From Cyanophora paradoxa CCMP329 (Eukaryota; Plantae; Glaucophyta): a stretch of 64,000 nt of DNA. A program made the translations under genes and the position numbers. Below, piece by piece: positions 1-31,500 of the stretch (positions within the stretch are counted from its first letter, which is position 1; each line of letters begins with the position of its first letter). The stretch spans positions 124,001 to 188,000 of the forward strand of contig QPMI01000621.1 in NCBI GenBank assembly GCA_004431415.1, written 5' to 3'. A model generated the notes under the pieces. It did not search any database. It saw only the letters and a list, made by a program, of their open reading frames with translations, and had not been told where the DNA came from.

Positions 1-1
1 C

Positions 2-410
2 AAATCCTACTAATCCAGTCGGAGCACCGGGAACTGATCCAGGAACGTTAGTGCTTATGATTCTCTTACCGATTCTCGGTGCTCTTGGGCTTGTGCTTGC
101 ATACAAATTCCGAGCTTTATGTTGTGCTTGCATAGACAGAACCATTGCAGGAGCAGGTAATAAATACTCCACACCTGAGCTGAATGTGACCCAAACAGCC
201 GAAGGAGATGTGGGCTTAGAGGTGAGGTCAGCCGAGGGGCATGGTCTAAGTGTTGTGAGAACTGATCAACCACCAGCAAGTAGGGCAGCACCCAAAAAAT
301 CACGAGCACAAGAATTGGCAGAGCAAACGATGAACAATGATAGAGACTTTATGGCGGAAATGGCACAGCGAGAAGGGAGAATATATGAACATGTTCCAAA
401 TGTTATGTAA
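2..410 (+). CDS. C-terminal part of a viral single-pass membrane protein (5' partial)
   Basis: The frame is open from the window edge (NPTNPVGAPGTDPGTLV). It contains a hydrophobic helix LMILLPILGALGLVLAY, then KFRALCCAC and a tail ending IYEHVPNVM. Confidence 0.6.
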   Translation, partial: NPTNPVGAPGTDPGTLVLMILLPILGALGLVLAYKFRALCCACIDRTIAGAGNKYSTPELNVTQTAEGDVGLEVRSAEGHGLSVVRTDQPPASRAAPKKSRAQELAEQTMNNDRDFMAEMAQREGRIYEHVPNVM

Positions 411-1324
411 CAACCTTAATTTTTGTAGTATTCCATAATAGAGTATAATGACTGAACCCATAGTAGAAACGACAATAAAGAATGCTGTCTTGGATAATCA
501 ATTTTATATAACCCATGCCAATATACCCAGTGAATCCAATGACCTGATAGTAGATCTAAAAGGGTATGTGATGGGAGCTATGGCTTCCAATCTGTGGAAT
601 GACATTTTTGGTTACGAGTTTGGTCACATATATGACATAGCAAATGGGATTGGCTATGTGGATGCAATGGCAGGAACAGCCTTTCGAAATCTTAATTGCA
701 ACTGTGTGGGAGGGTGGATGTTTCAGATCTGTTCAAATGTCGATCCTACTATTGATCCAGCTACTGTGACCTTTGATTGCAATCTATTCGCCCCTAAAAC
801 CATTTTCTCCATCACTTGCAACCTTGTATGTTCAGATGTGCCCATTGTAGCACCTGTAATAGGTGCATCCAATATGTATATCCAAAGAAATCCGGTCGTC
901 CATACAGGTGCCGAATTTATATTGGGCGACAACACCCCAATCAGCCGCCTCGAATTACCCACGAATTTCACATTTAATCTCGTGGATGAGTTCCCTAACA
1001 GTCAAAGTCTCATGTATTTCACCTCTGAAAATCGCCTTTCGGGTGCATTCTCACCAATTGAGCTGTCTATACCAAAGCAAAAGGTGAGCTATAAGGAGCT
1101 TACAGATGTGCCGGCGGGATTCAGTGGGAAGTGGAGTGATATCATTCAGAAGCCGACTTGGAGTAGTGTAGCATACACAGGAAATTACTATGATCTTGTA
1201 AATCCTCCCGATTTCACAAGCTATATACCTCGTTGGATCGATCAAGGTGTAATTATATCAGAATCTACACTACCTTTCAATGGGACATGGGATAGATTAT
1301 TTACTAAACCGAATTTACATGCTG

Positions 1325-1608
1325 TTTTTTTTTTTGAGAGACTACGGTGGGGCGAACCCCCCGTAGGTAGTGATATTAAAGACAACAAAGCAATCACAAA
1401 TCAAAGATACAGTAAACTAGCACAAAATATATACAGAATCAAGAGGGATCACGAGAAGGGACACGATCAGAAGAACGCAAAAGATAAGGAGAACGAGCAC
1501 GAGGAGAAGGAGTAGAAGAGCTCAAGGGCGTCGATGCAAAAGTACTAGTCACACTAGAACGACGAGGAGCACGGGGACGCAGCAAATAAGGAGAACGAGC
1601 ACGAGGAA
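1325..1608 (-). mobile_element. 5'-truncated non-LTR retroelement 3' end inserted into the viral gene
   Basis: T11 tract at 1325-1335 (poly(A) on the minus strand), adjacent hairpin 1342-1366, purine-skewed body, and an internal 22-bp direct repeat (1484-1505, 1586-1607). It splits the repeat unit GCTGT^..CTACAAGTGG. No TSD is visible. Confidence 0.8.
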
Positions 1609-1807
1609 CTACAAGTGGAAATTATGATGATCTGATAAACACACCAAACCTACATGCTGTGGCTACAAGTGGAAATTATGATGATCTGATAAACACACCA
1701 AACCTACATGCTGTGGCTACAAGTGGAAATTATGATGATCTGATAAACACACCAAACCTACATGCTGTGGCTACAAGTGGAAATTATGATGACCTGATTA
1801 ACACACC
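1609..1807 (+). repeat. 54-bp coding tandem repeat, about 3.7 copies (NLHAVATSGNYDDLINTP)
   Basis: Near-perfect unit ctacaagtggaaattatgatgatctgataaacacaccaaacctacatgctgtgg. Confidence 0.95.
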
Positions 1808-2258
1808 TACTTCGCCACCTACTCACAATCACAGCATCGAGTTGCTCACGAATTTCGGTAGCTATGTAAATCCAAATGCATATGTGCAACAGGGGACAGC
1901 GGATGTAGTTATACCTAATCAAGTTTATACAGTAGGGCAAGTGTTTACAGCATCAGGAACCGTTACGTTTTCTACCCCATATTATAGTGATCCAATAGTT
2001 AATGCTACTCTCGAAAACAGTATTATTTTAACGAGTGTCGATTTCACCAATAGCATATATCTCTCTTCTGAATATCAGTTCGGGAATCGCATTGGGTTCA
2101 AAAATAAATTCACTTGGATTGCTATATTTACTTGTTATTCGGCGATCAATTATACGAATGTGCCTCAAAACGAAAGAACCCTTAAACTCCATTGGATTGC
2201 TGTCGGACCTCTCCAAAACAATAATATTCTCGCTTAATAAGTAAAGAACAATCAAAAG

Positions 2259-3275
2259 ATGTCGACTGTATTCACACCTGTGTTTTCCTTATCAGCCAGT
2301 GCTGTCCATAATGTTCAACACACAGTCTATGATTTATCTCCGAGCCACCCTTCGACTGAGACAGCGAAAACCGATTCTTTTAATGACCAAAGCATACTCA
2401 GAGTCAAAGAACTCAGAGCTGACAAGATTGATGGACTCGTTAAAGCTACTCAAATAATCGTATCTAATCGACCCGCAATCTCTTCGGGGCTGGTCACCAA
2501 AGAAAATCTATATGAAGGTCAACAGGATTCCAAAACGGCTTTTAATCCGGCTGATAGGAATTCGGCGGCTTTTCAAGTTTACAGTGGTGGGGCATGGATT
2601 GGGACTGGACTTGGAGTGAATGGGAATGCAACAGTGAGCGGGAATGCAACAGTTACTGGAAGCCTTACAGCTGGATCATTTGGGACAGTTAAAACGACGA
2701 CTATTGATTCTGGGGCAAATACAGAGTTGGTGATCAAGCGAAATAATGAGAATATCGCTTCTACTTTCACAGCATCACACACTAATGCAACAGGTGGGGC
2801 AGTTGCAGGAACTTATAGCTGGAAAGGTCTCACTATTAATGGGACTAATTCCTATCTTGCACTTCCTAATCATCCCCGGTTTTGTGTTGGTGTTTCTGGA
2901 ACTGTAACTGGTGCGGCTTATATTGGAGCCTATGGGCATACATTTCTAAACCATGGAAATCACGTAAATGTTTCCACAGGTTACTTCACAGCTCCTGTGT
3001 CAGGTCATTACAGATTCGTGTTCACTGGCGTAACAAGTCTAAATAATGTTGATACATATGTAGCATTTAGAGTCAATGATGGGCCTCCTAATGGTAAAAA
3101 TCTCGATGGTTATACATCAGCGTTAGGAACGAACTATCATAGAACTATATGCTTGAATGTCATTGTAGCAATGTATGCTGGTGACACAGGAAGGTTATAT
3201 GTTGGAGGAACAATTATGGGAGCTGTTGGAACAGCAAATTGTCAATGGTCGGGTGAATTAATTTCTGCTTCGTAA
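2259..3275 (+). CDS. Viral fibre/spike protein with C-terminal C1q domain
   Basis: Shaft-like GGAWIGTGLGVNGNATVSGNATVTGSL, then C1q signatures TGYFTAPVSGHYRF, MYAGDT and WSGELI. Confidence 0.8.
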   Translation: MSTVFTPVFSLSASAVHNVQHTVYDLSPSHPSTETAKTDSFNDQSILRVKELRADKIDGLVKATQIIVSNRPAISSGLVTKENLYEGQQDSKTAFNPADRNSAAFQVYSGGAWIGTGLGVNGNATVSGNATVTGSLTAGSFGTVKTTTIDSGANTELVIKRNNENIASTFTASHTNATGGAVAGTYSWKGLTINGTNSYLALPNHPRFCVGVSGTVTGAAYIGAYGHTFLNHGNHVNVSTGYFTAPVSGHYRFVFTGVTSLNNVDTYVAFRVNDGPPNGKNLDGYTSALGTNYHRTICLNVIVAMYAGDTGRLYVGGTIMGAVGTANCQWSGELISAS

Positions 3276-3283
3276 GTAAAAGA

Positions 3284-3547
3284 ATGTCGAACATCTACCA
3301 AGTGGTTCTAACTGATACTGAAAAACTGGGAATGGAATACTGTGCCTACTCTGTTCAGGATTGGATCGATAATGCGGCTCATAATAGGGCGAGAATCGCG
3401 ATTGATGAGATTGTGGACAAAGAAGTTAAATCGTGTATTGGTGCTGGAATTCCGATTCCACTCACAAAGGAAGCGATTGTAGAGCAAGCGTTTAATCGGG
3501 GGACTGTTCGAAAGGCAAGCGAAATTCCTGTGAGTGCTCCTATGTAA
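3284..3547 (+). CDS. Small phage-like protein, possible fibre assembly partner
   Basis: Starts 8 bp after the C1q gene. SVQDWIDNAAHNRARIAIDEIV resembles small genes that follow C1q fibres in aquatic phages (recalled similarity, not searched). Confidence 0.6.
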   Translation: MSNIYQVVLTDTEKLGMEYCAYSVQDWIDNAAHNRARIAIDEIVDKEVKSCIGAGIPIPLTKEAIVEQAFNRGTVRKASEIPVSAPM

Positions 3548-3746
3548 AGAAGGACTGGGTTTATTGTTATTTTTCATAGATCATGCATAAGAAAGGCATG
3601 TATCTTGCATAGTGGGCGGGGCGCGAGTGGTTCCAGTGCATTAAATGGAACATTTCGATTGAAGTCGCGAGTTTGTGCAGGTGGGCATTTTCGGCATGCT
3701 TGCTCATGCACATACTCGCTTTAAAAAATATAAAATGAAATTCGGT

Positions 3747-4070
3747 TTAACTCTTACGAGTTTTGCTATAACACTCTCGGCATTGATAGTTGAGACCATC
3801 CTTCGTTCTTTGTCTTTTATTAAACTCACTTGCAAGCTTCTCAATCTTGCAGTGCGAGCATATCTTCGATTGCACTTCGATTTTCGGACGCGTTTTTAAG
3901 ACATTGTGATACAGGTCAACGTGATAGTCACGGTCGCATTCGATGCATCGCGGATTTAATGTGACATTACCAGTTTTTAATTTACGCAAACCAAAACACG
4001 ATGCAGGTCTATCTACTTTGCAGATAGTGCATTGCTTACGTTTGGGTAGTGGGAGTTGATTGCTCGGCAT
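3747..4070 (-). CDS. Tandem zinc-ribbon (CxxC...CxxC x2) protein
   Basis: KQCTICK..F..RCIEC and KICSHCK..EF..QCREC, as in the N-termini of viral HNH-associated DNA-binding proteins. No nuclease domain is present. Confidence 0.7.
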   Translation of the reverse strand: MPSNQLPLPKRKQCTICKVDRPASCFGLRKLKTGNVTLNPRCIECDRDYHVDLYHNVLKTRPKIEVQSKICSHCKIEKLASEFNKRQRTKDGLNYQCRECYSKTRKS

Positions 4071-4221
4071 CTTTATAGCTTAATAGCGGGAAATCTTTAA
4101 GTGGGGATCAACGCATTTTTTATGGTGATTACAGCTATCGGTGGGGCTCACCTTGATTTTTCAATTTGGGTAACTGAAAACAGTTTGGAAACGATTGGGA
4201 ACATTTTGTAAAAATAAGGGT

Positions 4222-4428
4222 CTTACTGTCCTTACTGAGATATCGAGAGAGGGTTTTAGGGCTTACTGAGAATGGTAAGTAATTAGAAAAATGAAGAATG
4301 AAAGGGTTTCGTGATTGGTTCCAGTAAGGAGAGGTTAGATGTTTGAAAAATACAGTGCTATTTTATAATTTGTTACTGAGCCTTACTGAGAAATTTGAAA
4401 ATGGATAATGGGCTTACTGAGAATGGTA
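4222..4428. repeat. Sub-terminal CTTACTGAG repeats of the viral element
   Basis: Exact or single-mismatch copies at 4222, 4231, 4262, 4372, 4382 and 4413, and an inverted core at 4322. GGGCTTACTGAGAATGGTA is identical at 4259-4277 and 4410-4428. Confidence 0.85.
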
Positions 4429-4469
4429 GTGGGGAAGGAAAGAAGAGGGCGCGCAATTGGTGGGGTTCT

Positions 4470-7428
4470 CCTGGGAGCGAGCTCCAAGCCCGCGGCCTAC
4501 AAGGGCGCCGAAGGCTTCGGCGTCCCGCAGCACGCTGTAGGGGCCGAGCCTGAGGACCCCGACGTCCCGCTGGGCATCTTTAGGATGCAGCTGGGCCCGA
4601 CCGAGCGGGCCCTGCGCCAGCTCGCCAACTCCGCCGGCTTCCGCGCGGAAGCCCCGGCCGAGGGCGGCCGAGCCGCTAGGCGCCGAGCGCCCCGGGCGGC
4701 GCCTGCGAGCGCCCCCCCTGCCCCGATGGGCCGCTCCTCTTATGCAGAGGAGGAGTCGCGGCCCCCTGTGCCATCCAGTGCTCTCGAGGCCGAGCCCGAC
4801 GCCGGCGCCCCTGAAGCGCCCGCGCCCAAGCCTGAGGGTGAGGCTGGCGGTGCTGCGGAAACCGATTCCGACGCCGAGCCCCCGCCGCCAGAGCGCGCGC
4901 CGCGACGCCTGCCCCGCGAGCTCGCCAAGCTTGCTGCGTCGGCTGGGTTCGCCGAGGCCAAGGCCTCCGCCTCGGCTACTGACGCCGCCACGCGCAAGCG
5001 AGCGCGGGCCGCCCCAGAGCGCTTCGCGCCTCCCGCGCCGGAGTCGGCCTCGCCGCCCCCGAAGCGACGGGAACCGGGCCCGGCGCCCGCTGTCGAAGAG
5101 CGCGAGGCCCCCTCGGACGCAGAGATGCCCGACGCCCCTGAGGGCGACCTGGGCGCCCCGGCCGCGCTGCTAGAGGACGCTCACGCCGAGGCCGAGGCCT
5201 CGGGCGAGATCGATGACGAGTCGATGCCGGAAGGGCCTGGCCCCTCCGACGCCTGCGACGCTGACGGTTTCCCCCTCGCTCTCGCGGAGCGAGTACCGAA
5301 GCGCTCAGAAACCGGGCCCCGTCGGTGGGGCGCCAAGGGATTTGCTGAGCCGCGGCCCCTGCATCCCGACGCGCTCTTCCCTCGCGGCCCCGCCTTGAGG
5401 CGGCAGCCTCGAGATGAGTACAACACGCGCCACTGGCGCTCCCCGGTCGACCCCTCGGAACGGCCGGTGCCGATTCATATCGAGTGGGAGCCAGAGGACC
5501 CTGAGGGCGAGCCGCCTCCCGGGCCTCCGCGCCGGCGCTCGCTCTCCCCAGAGACTGCTCGCCACCAGATCCGCGTTCGGCCGGTCCCTCCGGACCCCAA
5601 GCCAGCGCCGCGGGCTCGAGGTCGCCCCTCTGCCCGCGGGCAGGTTTCCGACGACGCCGCCCCGCTCGAGCCCGAGACGGTCGCCGCCGAGGCCGCCGCC
5701 CCGCAGCGGTGGGTAGAACTCGACCCTAGAGGCCGGGACGTTCGCCCGCCGTGCAAGCCGGTCTTCGTGGACACCGTCCTCGATGCGTGGGCCTGCGGAC
5801 CCTCGCCAGCCGTCGACGGGGCGCTCCCCGACGCGCTGCGCCGTATGTTCCCGACCGAGAAGCGCGAGCGTCTGCTCGCCGCTCAGAAGGAGGATTCCTT
5901 CTGCAAGAAGCTTCTCGCCTTCCACGCAGAGGGCGAGAACCCAACTGTCTGCACCCGCGGCTCGAGGCGCGACGCAGACCCCTGCTCGCCCAGCTGCGCT
6001 CACTGCCTGCGGGCCAAGGAGCGCTTTGCACGCCTGGCCGGCGAGTTCAGCTTGGCCGACGACGGCGTCATCGAGCGCAACCCCTTGGTCCCAGCCGGCC
6101 GGTTTCTACCCGTCTTGCCGGACGCTTGGATCGACAGGGTGCTCTACGCCTATCACGAGGGCTGGGCCCATCGAGGCGCGCCCGTGATAGCCCGTCGGAT
6201 CGCCCTGCGGTTCTGGTGGCCTGGCATGTACGCCTCCATCGCTCGCTTTGTGCGGTCGTGCCCGCACTGCCAGTTCGCGAAGGCCGCGAAGCCCCGCCGT
6301 ACCGCCATTCAGGTGATACAGCCTTCGGGCAAGGGAGACCTGTGGCAGGTGGATATCTTCCACTTGGATATGCACGAAGACGGTTCGCGATACATCATCG
6401 CGTACGTCGACGCGTACACCAAGTTCTGCTATATCTACCCGCTCTCCCGTATCTCCGGCGAGGCCTTGCTCGCCACCGCGATCGACTTCTATATGCACGA
6501 GGGCGTGCCCGCGCGCATCCTTACGGACCGCGGGTCCCAACTCGTTGGAGGCGCGTGGAACGCGTTCTTCAAGGAGAAAGGCACCCGGTTCGTGCACGCG
6601 GCCGCCTACCACCACGCCTCGAACGGTGGCGCCGAGCGCCTGGGCGGAGTCTACAAGACTCTCGCTTACGCCATGTGCCGTGAGCACAAGCGGCCGCTCT
6701 CTGACTGGCCTCTCTACAATGCCGATATCGTTCTCGCGTTGCGGACCACCGTGCACTCCGCCACCGGGTTCTCCCCGATGGTCTTGCACCGCGGTTCTGA
6801 AGTGCACCTGCCCTGCGAAGTGCGCTTTGGAGCCGGCGTCCGCTTCGTGAACCCCGACCACACGCACCCAGCCGACTACCTTCTCGCGATGACGCGAGCC
6901 GCCGCGAGCGCTGATGCCGCCTCGCGCGAGTACCGTCGGTTCTATCGGAACCGCATGGTTGCTCGCACCGGCAACCCGCCTCATCGTCGCCGCTTTGAGG
7001 TTGGCGACAAGGTATTGTGCTGGATGGGCGAACACAACAAAGGGCTGTACAATTCGTGGGTCGGGCCCTACACCGTGACTGGTGTTAACCCTGGCGGTTA
7101 CACCTACACGGTCAAGGGATCGGCTAAGCCCTACTCCGCCAAGGACGACGCCCGTACCCGTCCTTTGCGCGAGACCGTTGCCCACATCGACTGCATGCTT
7201 CCGTTCCGCACGCGTCTCTCCGAGTCTCAAGCCCGTCCTCGCGTTGGTCGGCCTCGGAAGACCGCTGCGAACGCTGACGAGCCGGCGATCGATCCCGCAT
7301 CCGCGGACTCGCCCGCTCAAGAACAAAATCCACCTCTCGCCCCTGACGTCGGTGCCGAGGGCCCCGAGCGGGCTGCCGAGGGCGACGAGGTTGAGATGGA
7401 TGACGCGATTTTGGTCGACGACCTGTGA
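4470..7428 (+). CDS. Gypsy/Ty3-type retrotransposon pol C-terminal part: disordered linker plus integrase (5' interrupted)
   Basis: HHCC finger YHEGWAH..FWWPGM..CPHCQ, DDE triad WQVDIF / LTDRGSQ / NGGAERL, GPY module WVGPYTV, and AT-hook-like VGRPRK. Confidence 0.93.
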
Positions 7429-8121
7429 GATGCTTGTCCCGTTGCCGTCCCATTTGCGATCGCTGCGCCTGCGCCGTGGGGCAGATTTCTTTGCCCGCTT
7501 TGCCTCAGCTTTGGCTTCCGAGGTGGGACGTGGGTTGGCTGGTGGCCAATCACGGGGCGTCATCTGGGCCTTTCGTTCCATTTTCTGGGATCCGGGCCCG
7601 TCGCTCGTGGAGAGTGGCTGGGGTGTAGGCTTCCCGGGCACCTGCAGGCTCGTGAGGGGCTTGAGGTCGCCGGCTGGGAGTGCACTCAGTCGTGCCCTAT
7701 CCTTTCGTTGGGCCTGATGGGCGGCCCGGATACCTCCTCGCTGGTTTCTTCCCGAGGCGGTGAAACTTCCCATCCGTGCCACTCTCCTTCGGCTCTCGCC
7801 GTTGGAGCGAGTTTGGGCCAGCTTTTGGGGGGTTTCCGAGTTTTTATGCTTTTCCTTCTTTCGAGCTTGGCCTGGGGTTGCCTAGGTACATGCACTATGC
7901 TGGTATCGGCTCCTATTTCGGTCGCGAGCTATGCTACCTGGCATATCTGGTTGCTGATGACGGACATTCTACTTCGAGAGGAGTTCACTCGCCGCCGCCC
8001 TGTCGCTGCCGCGGTTGGTGCACACCCCGGCGGTGGGGTGGACGCCCCGTCGAGCATGCAGACTCGACGTTCGGCTTGGCGCGGTCCGGTGCGAGGACGC
8101 ACCGTATGCAGAGTGAGGAGT

Positions 8122-8397
8122 TGTCGCGTGCAGCGATTCCCTCGGATTAGGCTAGCCGGTAGTCTATGCGTAGCCGCTAGCCCTAGTCTAGTGCTATCGA
8201 GCGGCTAGCTCTAGCGCTCTCTGTATTCTGACTTAGCGCCGGGCGCGACTCCGTTTGGGGGTACGCGATCCCTGGACGGGTACACTTGTGAATAGACCAC
8301 TTGTGCTCCCAGCTACAGCCACAGCCCGTGCGTGACCGCACGGACGCTGCACCGGGTGGGAATCCTCTCATCCGACAGGGACAGAGGATAACTGACA
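8122..8397 (+). mobile_element. Putative 3' LTR of the Gypsy element
   Basis: Purine tract AGAGTGAGGAG (8110-8120) precedes TGTC...GACA inverted termini. LINE-type sequence begins right after 8397. The second LTR is not in the window. Confidence 0.45.
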
Positions 8398-10927
8398 CGA
8401 AGAAAAGCCAGAGCTAGAGATACCATCAATATCAGAAGGAATTACATCACTAAGAAGCGGGGGACAAAATTGAGAAAGATAAATAACAGGAAGAAGACAA
8501 GTAAGAGGAACAACAAGACGACATGGAGGCGGAGGCGAAGCAGGACGATGCGAAAGGGCAGAGCTACGGCACGAGGTCGAGGAGGACACAGGAGGCGGAG
8601 CAGGCGGATCAAGAGCAGGCAAAAGGACAGTCAAAGGAATCACTAAAGCCGGCCGGGGTCGAGGCGGGCAATCGATATCGAACTGCAAACGACGGCGAAC
8701 AACAGGTCGAGCACGAGGACTATAGCTAGTATTGAAACTAACTCTAGCATCAACACTACGATCAGAATCCGAACCAGACCGAACTAAACTAGAAGACGAA
8801 GAAGTACGCCGGCGCCGGCGGGATACGATCGCGACCAGCGAAGCAGAAGACGAAGGCAAAGGCGGCAGTCCGGTATCAAGAACAAAAGCCGGAGGGTCCG
8901 GCCCGGCAAACTGCCGGGGGGAAGTAGAAGGAGCCGCAGGCTCGGCAAGCCGGCGACGGGTACGACCACGAGTCCGGGAGGAGATCGGGGAAGCCGGTCC
9001 CGGAGCTGAGGGCCCAGGAGCAGAGCCAGGAGAAGGTAAGCCCGGCGAGAAATCTGACCCGGAGCCGGAACCCAGCGAACGACGACGACGAAGAGGCCCC
9101 CGAGGAGCCACAACGGGGGAGCTACCGAGCAAAGTACTGACAGCCGGCGCCGAACACGGCGGCGGAGGTACCCCGCAGACAGTGGCAGGCGGAGAGTCCA
9201 GGGTCGATCGAGAGATCCGCCGACGGGAATGCGGCGGGGGCCGACGAGACGGAAGAGGCGAGGAGGGGGCCGAGGAAGGGTCGGAGGCAGGGGAAGGGCC
9301 GCGAGCAGGTGACGGGGATCGCTGCCGGCGCCGAAGAGAGGGCAGCGAAGTAGGAGAAAGGTCGGGTGGCGCCGGATCAGATGACACGGAGGTCATGGCC
9401 ATGGGCGGCGCAGAGAGAGACGAGCTCGAGGGCGCAAGGGCCCGACGAGGGCGCCGGCGGCGAATCTCACGAGCGCCAGGAAGCGGGACAGGACCCGCAG
9501 ATGGGACCCGAGGCGCCGAAGGGGGGGCAGGGAGCCGGAATGACGGGGAGACCGAAAAGAGGACAGTCTCGCCAACACTCGGAAGCGGGGCAGAGGCCGA
9601 GGACCCGTGGAATTATCTGGTTATCGCGAACGGGGAAGGCAACAAAAGTACCACTTGGGCCTCGAAGGAGAGCAAACGAGGCGTCCGGTCCGGACCACCA
9701 GAGATGCTGAGGCGGCGGTGCAGGGGCCTCGAGAACCTGGCGCCAAGTAGCCGGGAGCGCAGAGCACAGACTAGGGAAAAAGGAGTGGAGGGCGGAGGAG
9801 GCAGCTGCTGGAGCCCGGAACCCCCGGGCAGCACAATCCCAGATATCGCAGACCCGCAGCAAGCCGGACCGTGCACAGCGACTCCAGTCGACCTCGTCGC
9901 CGGGAGTACTGAACAGAGGATTGAAGAAAAGAGGTTGGGATAACACTTCGGGAGAGTTACGAGGTTGACACACGCCCTGGCGCTGAGCCCACTCGGAGAG
10001 AGTCTGCTTCCAAATAGGAGGCAAGTCAAGTCTGTCAAGTGGGAGGCGGAGCGAGACAAGGGCGGGGCCATAGGAAAAAGGTGCCAGCTGAGCGTCCAGT
10101 TTGCTCAAGAGGTACTCCTTCCAAGGAGCCGAACAAGAGGGGTCAGCGAGCAAGGCCACCCACTTCATTTTCAGCGATAACGAAAAAGCTCGAATATCCG
10201 GGCAGTTGAGACCACCTTGACGCCACGGCAGAGGAGAAATATACTTCGAAAGCTGCCCGCTCACGCCAGCAAAAGTGCGAAGCTTCTCTTGCCATGTCGA
10301 ATACTGAGCATCAGGGGGTCAAGCAAATATAGAGCATAATGTAGGGACCCAATAAATACAGCCCAGGCAAGGAGAACGCCGGAACGCATCGGCATGCGAT
10401 AAGTCTTCGCTTGCTGGACACGGATATCAAGAGCAGCGTTCTTTTTCCGCCAGAACCGAGACAGATCGGGCTCTAGTGGAAAGCCCAGGTATTTTCGAAT
10501 TTTTTCAGCGGGAGGGAGATCCGTCACCTGAAGACGCCGCCAGGGGCAGTCCTCGACGCTAGGCCAGGCATGTGCGGGGATATCGCGGAGTGGAAGAAGG
10601 CTAGATTTCTCGAGATTAATAAGAGCTCCAGAGAGCCGGCAGTATTTATCAAAGCACTCTTTCCAGAAAGGCAATTCGGTAAAAGTCGAGATTAAAGGAA
10701 CAGTGTCGTCTGCAAACTGGAGCACCTTGCAAAGAGAGCTAGAGGACAAGCGGACACCTCGTATACGAGCATCAGCATTAATCAAAAGGGCTAAAAGGTG
10801 TGTGCACAAATTATATAGATAGGGCGAAAGGGGGCCACCCTGACGTACACCGCATCGAATGGGGAAAGGGGCGGAGGTCCAGCCGTTAATGTGAACAGAA
10901 CCCTGCAGATCAGAGTAGAGCAGGCCA
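8398..10927 (-). mobile_element. Decayed, 5'-truncated L1/Tx1-type LINE (reverse transcriptase, frameshifted)
   Basis: GVRQGGPLSPYLY, QFADDT, INLEKS and KYLG motifs, then a frameshift near 10290 to LPWRQGGLNCPD..KMKW..WKEYL. A pyrimidine-rich 3' region follows, with no poly(A) before the LTR. Confidence 0.88.
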
Positions 10928-11509
10928 CTTAATGGACGGACCGTCGGACCGACTCGGACGTGCATAATGGACGCGGCAAAACCGGTATATGCATGAGCAC
11001 GGCCCTGGCCGGCCGCGCCTGCATGCACTCGCGATCGCCCTACCCGTGATCATGAGCAGCCGAGTCGGTCGACATCACTATCAGGCCCGGCCTTCCGCAG
11101 GCATTCGATCGAATTCGCAGATCGGAGCTGCTGACTACGATTATTAAGAACATGAACGGAACAGGGACACTGCTGTCGCAGTGGCCCTGTTGGAGGGAAG
11201 GACCTCTAAGTTCCGAGCCGGAACGGGCATGTTTAGCTATTTAGGTTACAATTACGAATTAGAGTCTGGATCACAGCAGACTGCGCCTGGCCCAGTGGCC
11301 CTGTGCAAGTGCGCCAAGTGCGGGCCGCGGGTGCAAGGGGGGGTACTTGTACACATTGCAGAGTACTTGAGGGGGGGGGGGGGGGGGGGCAGAAAGGCGA
11401 GGCGGGCGGGCGGGCGAGGCGGGCGGGATGGCGAGGCGGGCGGGTGCACGTGGGGTGGCGAGGCGGGCGGCGGCGGCGGCGGGCGGGAAAGCGGCGGCGG
11501 GAAGAGAGA

Positions 11510-28560: not shown

Positions 28561-31500
28561 TCAGGGGTACGGGCGGCGCCCGGCGAGGAGCCTGTCGATG
28601 GGGTCCCGGGCCCGCTGGAGGTCCTCCGGGGACTCGAACTCGCTCACGTTCGCGACGTTGATCCGGACCGAGACCTCGGGCCCCAGGCGCGCGAGGACCT
28701 GGGGGGAGGAAGGGTGAGGGGGGCCGAGAAGGTGTGGGGCGGGAGGGGGTACCTCGAAGGGGCGGAGGGCGGAGCGGGAGTAGGGCTCGAGGGTGACGGC
28801 GACGTAGAGGCGGCGGAGGGCGGGGAGGGCGGCGATCGCCTCCGCCTCGGCGACGGAGAGGGGCGCGCCGGCCTCCTCCTCCTCGGCGTCCAGGGGCCGC
28901 CCGAGGCGCAGGTCGAGCTCGGTGAGGGCGCGACGTCCTCCTCGGCGCAGGAGCCCGACGACGTCCTCCGGGCTCGCCTCGCGCGCTGCCGAAGCTCAGC
29001 TGAAGCTCAGCTGAAGCTCAGCTGAGGGCCGAGCGCGCACCGTTGAGCTCGAGGCGGAGGGCGGAGAGGTTTGGGGGGCACGAGAGGGCCTCGGCGAGGG
29101 CGGGGAGGAGCGCCGCGTTGGGGCCGGCCGCGTCGCTCCCCTCCACCCGCAGGACCAGCTCCCTGGCGCGATTGAATCTTAGATAAGCTTCAAGAGTTCT
29201 CTTAGGTTCTGGGCGGGGGTGATCCTGAGAACACGATGATCTCTTAGGTTTCCGAGTTATAATTAGATCTTGAATCTTAGATAAGACCTGGGCCTGGGCA
29301 CAAGTCTTAGGTGCCTTAGGACCAGCTCCCTGGCGCGAGTCTTAGCTATAGAGAGGGTTCTGCGCTTGTCTGGGATCTCTGTAAATGTAAGATTCTAAGT
29401 TCTAGATTTGTGCAGCTGTCAGATTCGGGGTTCCACATTTCTTTCAGATTTCTCTTAGGTTCCGGGCGTAAGATTCCTCTTAGGATCTGGGGGGGTGGGG
29501 GTACCGGAGGCTGGAGGCGCCGCGGCCCAGGGCCAGCACCGCCACCGGCGCCGTCCGGTCCGCCCGGATCTGGAGAAGCCCGAGTCAGAGAGCGGGGCCG
29601 TTACCGGTATTTATAATGAAATTTAACGGAAAGTGGAGCCTCACAGCGGAGCACGAATATTAGTCAGAGAGCGGGGCCAGATCCGGAATCTGAACAGCGC
29701 AAGGCCCAATCTGAGATCTAGCGGAAAGAGACCTAAACCTTAACAACGGAAGTCCTTCTCTTAAATCTAACCGAACGCGGGGCCGGAATCTATAACTAAA
29801 CAACGCAAGTCCTTCTCTTAAATCCAACGGCGGGCGCGCACGGGGAGCGGGGCGAGGCGCTCGAGGCGGGGCATCTAACGGAGAGAAAGGCCCTGGGGCC
29901 TCTGTAGCTAGAATCTTCAAGGCTTACGGAGATCTAATAAGAAATCTAACGGAAAGAACCTCTTATATAGGTAGATCTTATATACAGGGCGCACGCTCTC
30001 TTATTATAAAATTAAGAGGGCGCGCACGCAGAGGGGCCCGAGGGACTCGAGGCGGGGCATGCGCCCGAGGGCGGCGAGGGCGGCGTCCGAGAGCTCGACG
30101 CCCGCGAAGTGGCGGAGGTGGGGCCGCAGCGCCGCCGCGTCCACCTCCGCGAGCCGCGCGAGCTCGTCCGACCTGAAGAGGGGGCGGATGAGGGCCGGCC
30201 GCGGGGCGGAGGAGGCTAGTCTGGGCGGAGGAGGCTGGCAGAGGAGGCGCGCCGGGGCGGGGCGCGAGAGAGGGGGTGGAAGAGAGGCAGAGGAGGCTGC
30301 GCTGGGCTGGGCTGGGCCTCGAGCTCGCTCGCTCACCCGAGCTCGGCCTCGTTAGTTTGGGGCTAGTCTGGAGGAGGGCCAGGGCCCGGGCGGAGGAGGC
30401 TAGTCTGGGCTGGGCTGGGCCGGGCGGGGCCTCGCTCGCTCACCCGAGCTCGGCCTCGTTAGTCTGGGGCTAGTCTGGAGGAGGGCCGGGGCCGGGGCGG
30501 AGGAGGCTAGTCTGGGCTGGCCAGGCTGGTCGGGGCGGGGCCTCGCTCACCCGAGCTCGGCCTCGTTAGTCTGGGGCTAGTCTGGAGGAGGCCTAGGGCT
30601 GGGGCCCGGGTGGAGGAGGCTAGTCTGGGCTGGGCTGGGCCGGGCGGGGCCTCGCTCGCTCACCCGAGCTCGGCCTCGTTAGTCTGGGGCTAGTCTGGAG
30701 GAGGGCCGGGGCCGGGGCGGAGGAGGCTAGTCTGGGCTGGCCAGGCTGGGCTGGGCCGGGCGGGGCCTCGCTCACCTGAGCTTGGCCTCGTTGAGGAAGA
30801 GGAGGCGGCGGAGGCTGCGGCCGGCGGGCCCGGCGGCGAGGGCCGCGACGCCCTCGGAGACCTCGCCCCGCTGGCAGCGGAAGGCGAGGGCCAGGCGCTC
30901 GAGCCGCGCCAGGGGGGCGAGCGCCGCCAGCGCCGCCGACTCGGAGCCGTCCTTGGGGCGGAGGCCGAGGCTGCGGAGCAGCGGGCAGGCGGCGGCGATG
31001 GCGGTGGCGACCTCCGGCGGCATGCCGTTGTCGAGGGCCGGGAAGCATAGGGAGAGGGAGCGAAGGCCGCCGAAGGGAGCGAGGGCGGCCCGCAGCTCGG
31101 CGGCCGGGGGCGGCAGTATGATCGAGAGGGGCGACCGCCGCGCGTTGGCGAGGCTGAGGTGGAGCCCCTCGAGCGGGGCGGGCGCGCCCTCGGCCTCGGG
31201 CTCCGTATCCTGAGGGCGGAGCGCCCCAAGCGCTCCGAGCAGGTACGCGGACAGGAAATCGGGGCCGTACCCCTCCGCGAATCCGTGCTCGTCCATGTAC
31301 TCCGGCCCGAGCACTCGGACCACCACTTCCCGCAGCAGCGGCGCCGTCGCCGGCGCCGGCGCGGCGGCCGGCGCCGCTCCGCGCGATCCGCCGGCTGCAG
31401 CGCTGCGGCTGCGGCTCCGGGCGAACGCCGCGAGGAGACGGCAGGCCGCCGCCAGCTCGCGCCAGTCCGGGCCGAGCACGACGCCGGCGCCCCCGCCGAG

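What the first reader, a model, noticed from the sequence alone, without database searches (positions are those of the whole stretch)
448..2237. Probable penton-fibre-lectin fusion: a one-gene vertex spike
Seen: removing 1327-1607 restores one ORF of about 500 aa with three parts. Residues about 1-210 end in IFSITCNLV..PVIGASNMYIQRNPV..G..FTFNLVDEF..IELSI, which parallels the Polinton penton pattern (YCDLV..IVGD..LLRIVPV..IEIDIRDD). Next come phage-type SGxYxDLxNxP shaft repeats of expandable number, then a GTVTF..WIAVG fibre tip. Known: adenoviruses encode penton base and fibre separately, while PRD1 P5 joins a penton-like N-domain, a shaft and a trimeric knob. Inference: a eukaryotic virus penton has fused to bacteriophage tail-fibre parts, making a modular receptor-binding spike.
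Basis: partly seen in the sequence, partly recalled or inferred. Interest (0 to 1): 0.85.

Follow-up and report, generated by a model that had tools for sequence, protein, structure and literature searches.

The report
Broken viral fibre with orphan base
A multi-copy, likely viral DNA island in a GC-rich eukaryote carries one gene, here interrupted by a likely retroelement fragment, that joins an unidentified base domain to phage-type fibre repeats and a likely sugar-binding tip; it is likely a virus attachment fibre, and the idea that the base is a capsid-corner (penton) protein remains unproven.

Summary
The anatomy is real. 448-1326 (293 codons) and 1608-2237 (209 codons) are open and in phase around a 281-nt insert that looks like the 3' end of a high-copy retroelement. 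Related copies in public runs lack the insert. One independent intact homologue (P0001, 355 aa, 41% identical over the N-domain) has the same order in a single ORF: N-domain, repeats, H-lectin-like tip. The repeats match phage fibre proteins (63% to a phiRSL1 tail fibre). So this is one three-part fibre gene, and such phage-like fibres are already described in Polinton-like viruses.

The penton claim is not shown. Two folds failed (pLDDT under 30). Profile comparison with 30-32 natural Polinton pentons stayed within shuffles. A post-hoc strand-block test gave only a weak hint (about 2% of shuffles), and my penton profile is too narrow to exclude a distant jelly roll. I put a penton-like base at about 0.3.

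Verdict: new variant of a known kind, with an orphan base domain worth one structure.

The parts
448..984 (+). Orphan N-terminal (base) domain, aa 1-179, rich in beta-favouring residues; fold unknown
   Evidence: 41% identical to P0001 over aa 17-179, E 3.7e-19; no Pfam, PHROG, NCBIfam, PDB or phage-genome match; folds failed
985..1083 (+).
   Evidence: In P0001 the repeats start right after the shared NxTFN motif
1084..1326 (+). First shaft segment, 4 degenerate repeats
   Evidence: phrog_17509 E 4.5e-6; 28 phage records at E up to 1, best 2e-4
1327..1613 (-). Insert: likely 3' end of a high-copy poly(A) retroelement, with a UUCG hairpin just before a short A-tail; 5' boundary ambiguous over 1607-1613
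   Evidence: Summed contig depth several-fold above the flanks in 4 of 4 DNA-type runs laid; hairpin z -2.6, 3 of 200 shuffles as good; no second copy in the window
1608..1807 (+). Second shaft segment, 18-aa repeat, 3.7 near-identical copies
   Evidence: 62.7% identity, E 5e-18, to phiRSL1 ORF188 annotated tail fiber protein; 76 phage records at E up to 1
1808..1859 (+). Short HxH-type fibre motif (PTHNHS) between shaft and tip
   Evidence: Aligns with PSSHTHS of P0001, which matches PDB 9D93 tail collar fibre gp4, E 6e-4
1860..2237 (+). C-terminal tip, likely of H-lectin / fibre-tip type; interior appears to differ among copies
   Evidence: Shares GxVTF and HWIAxG with the P0001 tip, 21 of 2000 shuffles as good in global alignment, 64 of 1000 in local; joint 1910 to 2178 and loose ends at 1916
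2259..3275 (+). Second fibre-like gene, 338 aa, with C1q-type tip that differs among copies
   Evidence: PF00386 E 5.3e-6, above cut-off; joints 2716 to 3283 and 2744 to 3318 in 3 of 3 DNA-type runs
3284..3547 (+). 87-aa gene; its relatives follow long fibre-like genes in phage contigs (possible fibre assembly factor, inferred)
   Evidence: 23 viral loci at 47-53% identity; in 7 of 23 the adjacent upstream gene matches the C1q tip at E up to 0.01, in 3 more a nearby gene does
1..4465 (.). Right-hand part of a 41.5% GC, gene-dense, multi-copy island in a 66.6% GC host; runs off the left end of the window; right boundary approximate
   Evidence: many alleles at 80-100% identity in each DNA-type run

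Best explanation
This is one three-part gene, interrupted in this copy by a likely retroelement fragment, that likely encodes an attachment fibre of a likely endogenous DNA virus: an unidentified base domain that would anchor it to the particle, a phage-type repeat shaft, and a likely sugar-binding tip. Shown: the single-ORF architecture in an independent homologue, the phage-fibre nature of the repeats, and related copies without the insert. Inferred: that the island is a Polinton-like virus (no capsid, ATPase or polymerase gene lies in the window); that the shaft and tip form a trimer (established for phage fibres and H-lectins, recalled); that the base docks on a separately encoded capsid or penton, as described for Polinton-like virus fibres; and that repeat number sets the reach while tip exchange changes what is bound. 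This copy would give a tipless, truncated product and is likely dead.
For: Intact homologue P0001 with the same order in one ORF (local score above 1000 of 1000 shuffles). Contigs that join across the insert: 1326 to 1611 with three other letters in its place, which keeps the frame (X1), and 1326 to 1761 (X5, X3). Shaft matches to phage tail and head fibres. It sits in a run of fibre-type genes in a low-GC, gene-dense island. [quoted passage not shown]
Against: No structure for any part. The base has only one independent homologue, so its role as an anchor is pure inference. The window's tip has no H_lectin hit of its own at E up to 10, and the two-sequence tip profile finds nothing meaningful in PDB. 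The insert-free joints rest on single contigs, with 20 letters on the short side for 1326 to 1761 (below the tool's 31-letter standard) and no side length given for 1326 to 1611. No hallmark virus gene is in the window. A block test gives the penton rival a weak hint.
Confidence: 0.58

Rival explanations
1. The base is a highly diverged, insert-less penton-type single jelly roll. The protein would then work like tectivirus P5: three copies enter the vertex by their base, and shaft and tip trimerise above it.
For: Size (165-180 aa) and composition fit a bare beta-sandwich. Eight conserved blocks of the Polinton penton alignment placed in order on the two homologues scored above most controls: 18 and 22 of 1000 shuffles, 1 and 4 of 82 real phage windows, with FY(I/M) and GYExG(H/L) landing on the penton's first and third blocks. 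Pentons without the DE insert and penton fusions are reported (PMC11071296, passages). P5/P31 shows that a penton-like base on a trimeric spike can work (PMC6750898, passages).
Against: hhalign probability 0.4 or less, scores 10-16 against shuffles 14.1 +/- 3.1. hmmsearch with whole, half and core profiles is at or below shuffles. The block score is negative (-11.5) against 168-225 for true pentons; single sequences reach only 97 and 166 of 1000 shuffles; the test was post hoc and one of several. A pentamer-forming base on a trimeric shaft needs a partner penton, and none is in the window.
Confidence: 0.3
2. The protein is not a virion part but a surface or secreted adhesin/lectin carried by a capsid-less mobile element, or a fibre taken whole from a bacteriophage and now decaying.
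For: No capsid gene in the window. The neighbouring C1q fibre and 87-aa gene come as a pair in phage contigs, so whole phage modules were acquired.
Against: The base has no relative in 50,697 phage records, IMG/VR or prokaryote genomes (pattern scans, weak). Differences among copies in 448-1326 fall mostly at third codon positions in the rows shown (by eye, not counted), which suggests a maintained reading frame.
Confidence: 0.12

Closest known systems
Phage-like fibre proteins of Polinton-like viruses, including the PTR-PTR-H_lectin protein reported once from a Cyanophora paradoxa PLV (PMC12220804), PgVV Ltf (10.1101/2022.07.28.501842) and Tetraselmis PLV tail fibre protein (10.1101/2025.10.09.676808)
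   Same: Eukaryotic element gene with phage fibre repeats and a carbohydrate-binding type tip; modular, variable repeat number; clustered with other fibre-type genes
   Different: The N-terminal domains named there (avian adenovirus fibre N, BppL_N) are not detected here; this base matches no family. I could not check whether the reported PTR-PTR-H_lectin protein is a relative.
Tectivirus spike P5 with penton P31 (PR772/PRD1; PMC6750898)
   Same: One chain with base, shaft and distal head
   Different: P5's base is clearly similar to P31 and shown in the vertex; here no penton link is shown. The shaft is of phage-fibre type, not collagen-like.
Tailed-phage fibres with GxYxDLxxxP repeats: phiRSL1 ORF188, crAss-like head fibre proteins, S-H34 tail fibre, PDB 9D93 gp4
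   Same: Repeat unit up to 63% identical; HxH motif shared
   Different: Neither base nor tip matches those proteins convincingly; the gene lies in a eukaryotic genome
Polinton/Maverick penton (minor capsid protein)
   Same: At most a few short motifs in the same order
   Different: 250-300 aa stand-alone genes; the YCD motif starts at median residue 173 and lies 82-101 aa from the end (32 full-length ORFs); no significant profile match

Membership tests
Polinton/PLV penton (single jelly roll minor capsid protein) | Eight-stranded single jelly-roll fold | tested here: inconclusive
   AlphaFold2 mean pLDDT 29.1 (single sequence) and 26.8 (two sequences); not used for fold search
   C-to-G distance 15 against 9; GD reads GA, LLR reads IQR; CNLV not kept in P0001. 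The reference set was fetched with this motif, so its invariance there is by construction.
Polinton/PLV penton (single jelly roll minor capsid protein) | Profile similarity to penton families | tested here: inconclusive
   Within shuffles against Polinton pentons; weak block-order hint. The profile finds no penton in PDB either, and Pfam has no hit for 4 of 4 true pentons, so reach is short. No PLV, virophage or giant-virus penton profile was available.
Polinton/PLV penton (single jelly roll minor capsid protein) | Pentamer (or mixed pentamer) at the five-fold vertex | not testable with these tools
Phage-type fibre protein | Shaft repeats homologous to phage fibres | tested here: met
   E 5e-18 to phiRSL1 tail fibre; PHROG tail families for P0001; PDB 9D93
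Phage-type fibre protein | Homotrimer | not testable with these tools
H-type lectin tip (PF09458) | Match to the family profile at or above its cut-off | tested here: inconclusive
   P0001 20.5 bits against cut-off 24, E 5.4e-4; window tip no hit; window tip against P0001 tip 21 of 2000 shuffles
Polinton-like virus (element) | Major capsid, minor capsid and packaging ATPase genes | not testable with these tools
   The island runs off the window's left end and no genome is held
Polinton-like virus (element) | GC-contrasting, gene-dense, multi-copy insertion in a protist-like genome | tested here: met
   41.5% against 66.6% GC; many alleles; intron-rich host kinesin gene nearby

The most novel reading that the evidence does not exclude
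A eukaryotic Polinton-like virus has re-invented the tectivirus P5 design: a stripped-down penton jelly roll fused to bacteriophage fibre repeats and an exchangeable lectin tip, so that one gene builds both part of the capsid vertex and a length- and specificity-tunable spike, diversified across many endogenous copies.
Probability: 0.28. Interest if true: 0.78.

Novelty: new variant of a known kind. Interest (0 to 1): 0.42.

Why it matters
How Polinton-like viruses fix their phage-derived fibres to the capsid is unknown; the papers read assume non-covalent binding to the penton. This gene family offers a compact test case (the intact homologue is 355 aa). Its base is either a new anchor domain or a penton fused to its fibre, which I did not find described for a Polinton-like virus in the searches run. 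The signs of tip exchange in two adjacent fibre genes among copies in one host would also make attachment specificity directly testable.

Tried and rejected
Folds: two AlphaFold2 jobs failed, so no fold search was run. Complex prediction and the protein Atlas were not available. Homologue searches: none for the base (only P0001 itself); none for the tip; none for the second fibre's N-part; 0 of 7 exact look-ups. The word- and pattern-based searches are insensitive at 40% identity, so these blanks are weak. P0002 (E 8e-4, 24% over 46 aa, a repeat protein) was dropped as chance. Penton pattern: 0 matches in viral contigs; 120 loci in metagenomes, of which 118 had the motif ORF, 63 were 170-340 aa, 32 full length and 30 went into alignment A3. 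In one search the global hhalign against the core profile beat 30 of 30 shuffles, but it put the penton's first strand on the query's last 15 residues, so I rejected it. The first block test (1 and 0 of 200) was biased by gap columns and was redone. Expression: no RNA holder listed; three RNA-guessed runs covered mainly the insert, which says nothing either way. Contig depth was not used as copy number. No Rfam match in the window. Earlier scan notes: nothing relevant in 7 look-ups. Host species was not tested: GC content and short introns recall Cyanophora paradoxa (from memory only). PMC10120064 passages, PMC12344493 passages, PMC6428243 and PMC7600307 passages added nothing decisive. bioRxiv supplements and the Zenodo data of PMC12220804 were not seen and may hold this protein's annotation.

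Full report
Setting. Window 1 to about 4465 is a 41.5% GC island in a host of 66.6% GC. It holds intronless ORFs packed a few tens of bases apart and runs off the left end. Retroelement remains follow (integrase at 4408-7428, reverse transcriptase at 10261-11028), then intron-rich host genes such as a kinesin and an LRR gene. No genome is held. All 14 runs that hold half or more of the sampled words carry one organism label. Each DNA-type run laid shows many alleles from under 90% to over 99% identity, so the island is multi-copy. A unicellular eukaryote host and an endogenous DNA virus are inferred, not shown; no capsid, ATPase or polymerase gene is in the window.

Observation. 448-1326 is open for 293 codons and 1608-2234 for 209, both in phase, about 500 aa in sum. 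The insert starts with a T-run. Read on the minus strand it ends in a UUCG hairpin and a short A-tail (3 of 200 shuffles fold as well). Its summed contig depth is several-fold above the flanks, and other copies continue beyond 1613 into unrelated sequence. This fits a 5'-truncated poly(A) retroelement with about 6 nt of microhomology and no visible target duplication (inference).

One gene or two. One contig in run X1 joins 1326 to 1611 with three other letters in place of the insert, which keeps the frame. Contigs in X5 and X3 join 1326 to 1761, as expected for fewer repeats, though the letters between are not known and the short side is only 20 letters. Stronger is the independent homologue. 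A full HMMER scan of 1.84 billion representatives with aa 1-212 gave 2 hits. P0001 (E 3.7e-19, 41% over aa 17-179) is an intact 355-aa ORF: base, FDGxYxxLxNKP repeats, an HxH motif, and a tip that hits H_lectin at E 5.4e-4, below cut-off. The second hit was judged chance.

Shaft and tip. The 18-aa repeat is 62.7% identical to phiRSL1 ORF188, annotated tail fiber protein (E 5e-18), and matches 76 phage records at E up to 1, including crAss-like head fibres. The P0001 shaft matches PHROG tail families and PDB 9D93 tail collar fibre. The window's tip has no H_lectin hit and only a weak PHROG hit of unknown function (E 0.0017). It shares GxVTF and HWIAxG with the P0001 tip: 21 of 2000 shuffles in global and 64 of 1000 in local alignment do as well. 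So the lectin label is likely but indirect. A joint from 1910 to 2178 (X3, one contig, short side 24) and identical loose ends at 1916 in X1 and X3 suggest that other copies carry a different tip interior.

Is the base a penton? Two folds failed (pLDDT 29.1 and 26.8). No family library, PDB sequence or phage genome matches, but 4 of 4 true Polinton pentons have no penton family hit in Pfam either. hhalign gave probability 0.4 or less and scores of 10-16 against 14.1 +/- 3.1 for 100 shuffles. hmmsearch with half and core profiles was unremarkable (for example 355 of 500 shuffles as good).

One result points the other way. Placing eight conserved penton blocks in order on the two homologues gave a score reached by 18 and 22 of 1000 shuffles, and by 1 and 4 of 82 real phage windows for the single sequences. 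The absolute score is negative against 168-225 for true pentons, single sequences alone are not significant against their own shuffles (97 and 166 of 1000), and the test was post hoc. My profile also finds no penton in PDB, so its silence says little about PLV-, virophage- or giant-virus-type pentons. The penton question is open, at about 0.3.

Mechanism. Most likely the intact gene makes a trimeric attachment fibre. The base holds it on the particle, the repeats set its length, and the tip binds a surface sugar on the host or a helper virus. The trimer, the anchoring and the binding are inferred. This copy stops inside the insert at codon 356 and would lack the tip. The neighbourhood fits a fibre cluster: a second gene with a C1q tip that differs among copies, and an 87-aa gene whose relatives follow fibre-like genes in phage contigs.

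Comparison with what is known. PMC12220804 (passages, supplement hits) lists many phage-like fibre architectures in Polinton-like viruses, one of them PTR-PTR-H_lectin, and treats fibre and penton as separate. The PgVV preprint (passages) found its fibre-like protein in particles, and the Tetraselmis preprint (passages) lists tail fibre and minor capsid as separate conserved genes. PMC11071296 (passages) reports insert-less pentons and a proposed penton fusion in adomaviruses. It works like a known PLV fibre; membership of the base in the penton family is not established. I found no penton-fibre fusion in a Polinton-like virus in five searches.

Verdict. Observation confirmed, interpretation partly supported. 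New variant of a known kind, interest 0.42; 0.78 if the base proves to be a penton.

Noticed in passing
window 2259-3547: C1q-tipped fibre-like gene plus 87-aa gene form a pair also seen in phage contigs (23 loci at 47-53% for the small gene). The 4 loci whose ORFs I listed look like T4-like cyanophages by their genes (my reading). Other host copies replace the C1q tip (joints 2716-3283, 2744-3318, 2885-3274): a possible tip-exchange cassette.
   Followed up: partly
window 1327-1613 (-): 3' end of a high-copy retroelement with a UUCG hairpin before the A-tail; present in RNA-guessed contigs up to 3.9 kb long.
   Followed up: partly
window 1-410 (+): End of an ORF with a likely transmembrane helix, a CCAC motif and a charged tail; no family match. 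A type I membrane protein would be unusual beside capsid fibres.
   Followed up: no
window 3747-4070 (-): 107-aa Cys-rich ORF resembling the zinc-binding part of phage HNH / endonuclease VII proteins (PHROG E 4e-12 to 1e-9).
   Followed up: no
window 4170-4465: Likely end of the island: 48-nt direct repeats at 4230 and 4381, an RNA-guessed contig of depth 381 that joins 3696 to 4171, and a GC jump at about 4440.
   Followed up: no
window 4408-11050: Ty3/gypsy-type integrase ORF (+) and a reverse transcriptase fragment (-) directly beside the island.
   Followed up: no
window 949-1010 against L025: The best local penton-profile match of the base region is LELPTNF..FPN to the penton's N-terminal LTLPSN..YPDN, at the wrong end of the domain, within shuffles and mostly absent from P0001. 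Unexplained, likely chance.
   Followed up: partly
L074 (metagenome locus): A Polinton-type penton ORF of 364 aa, about 100 aa longer upstream of the motif than the others.
   Followed up: no
window 30286-30792: 107-nt tandem repeat, 4.7 copies, in host DNA.
   Followed up: no
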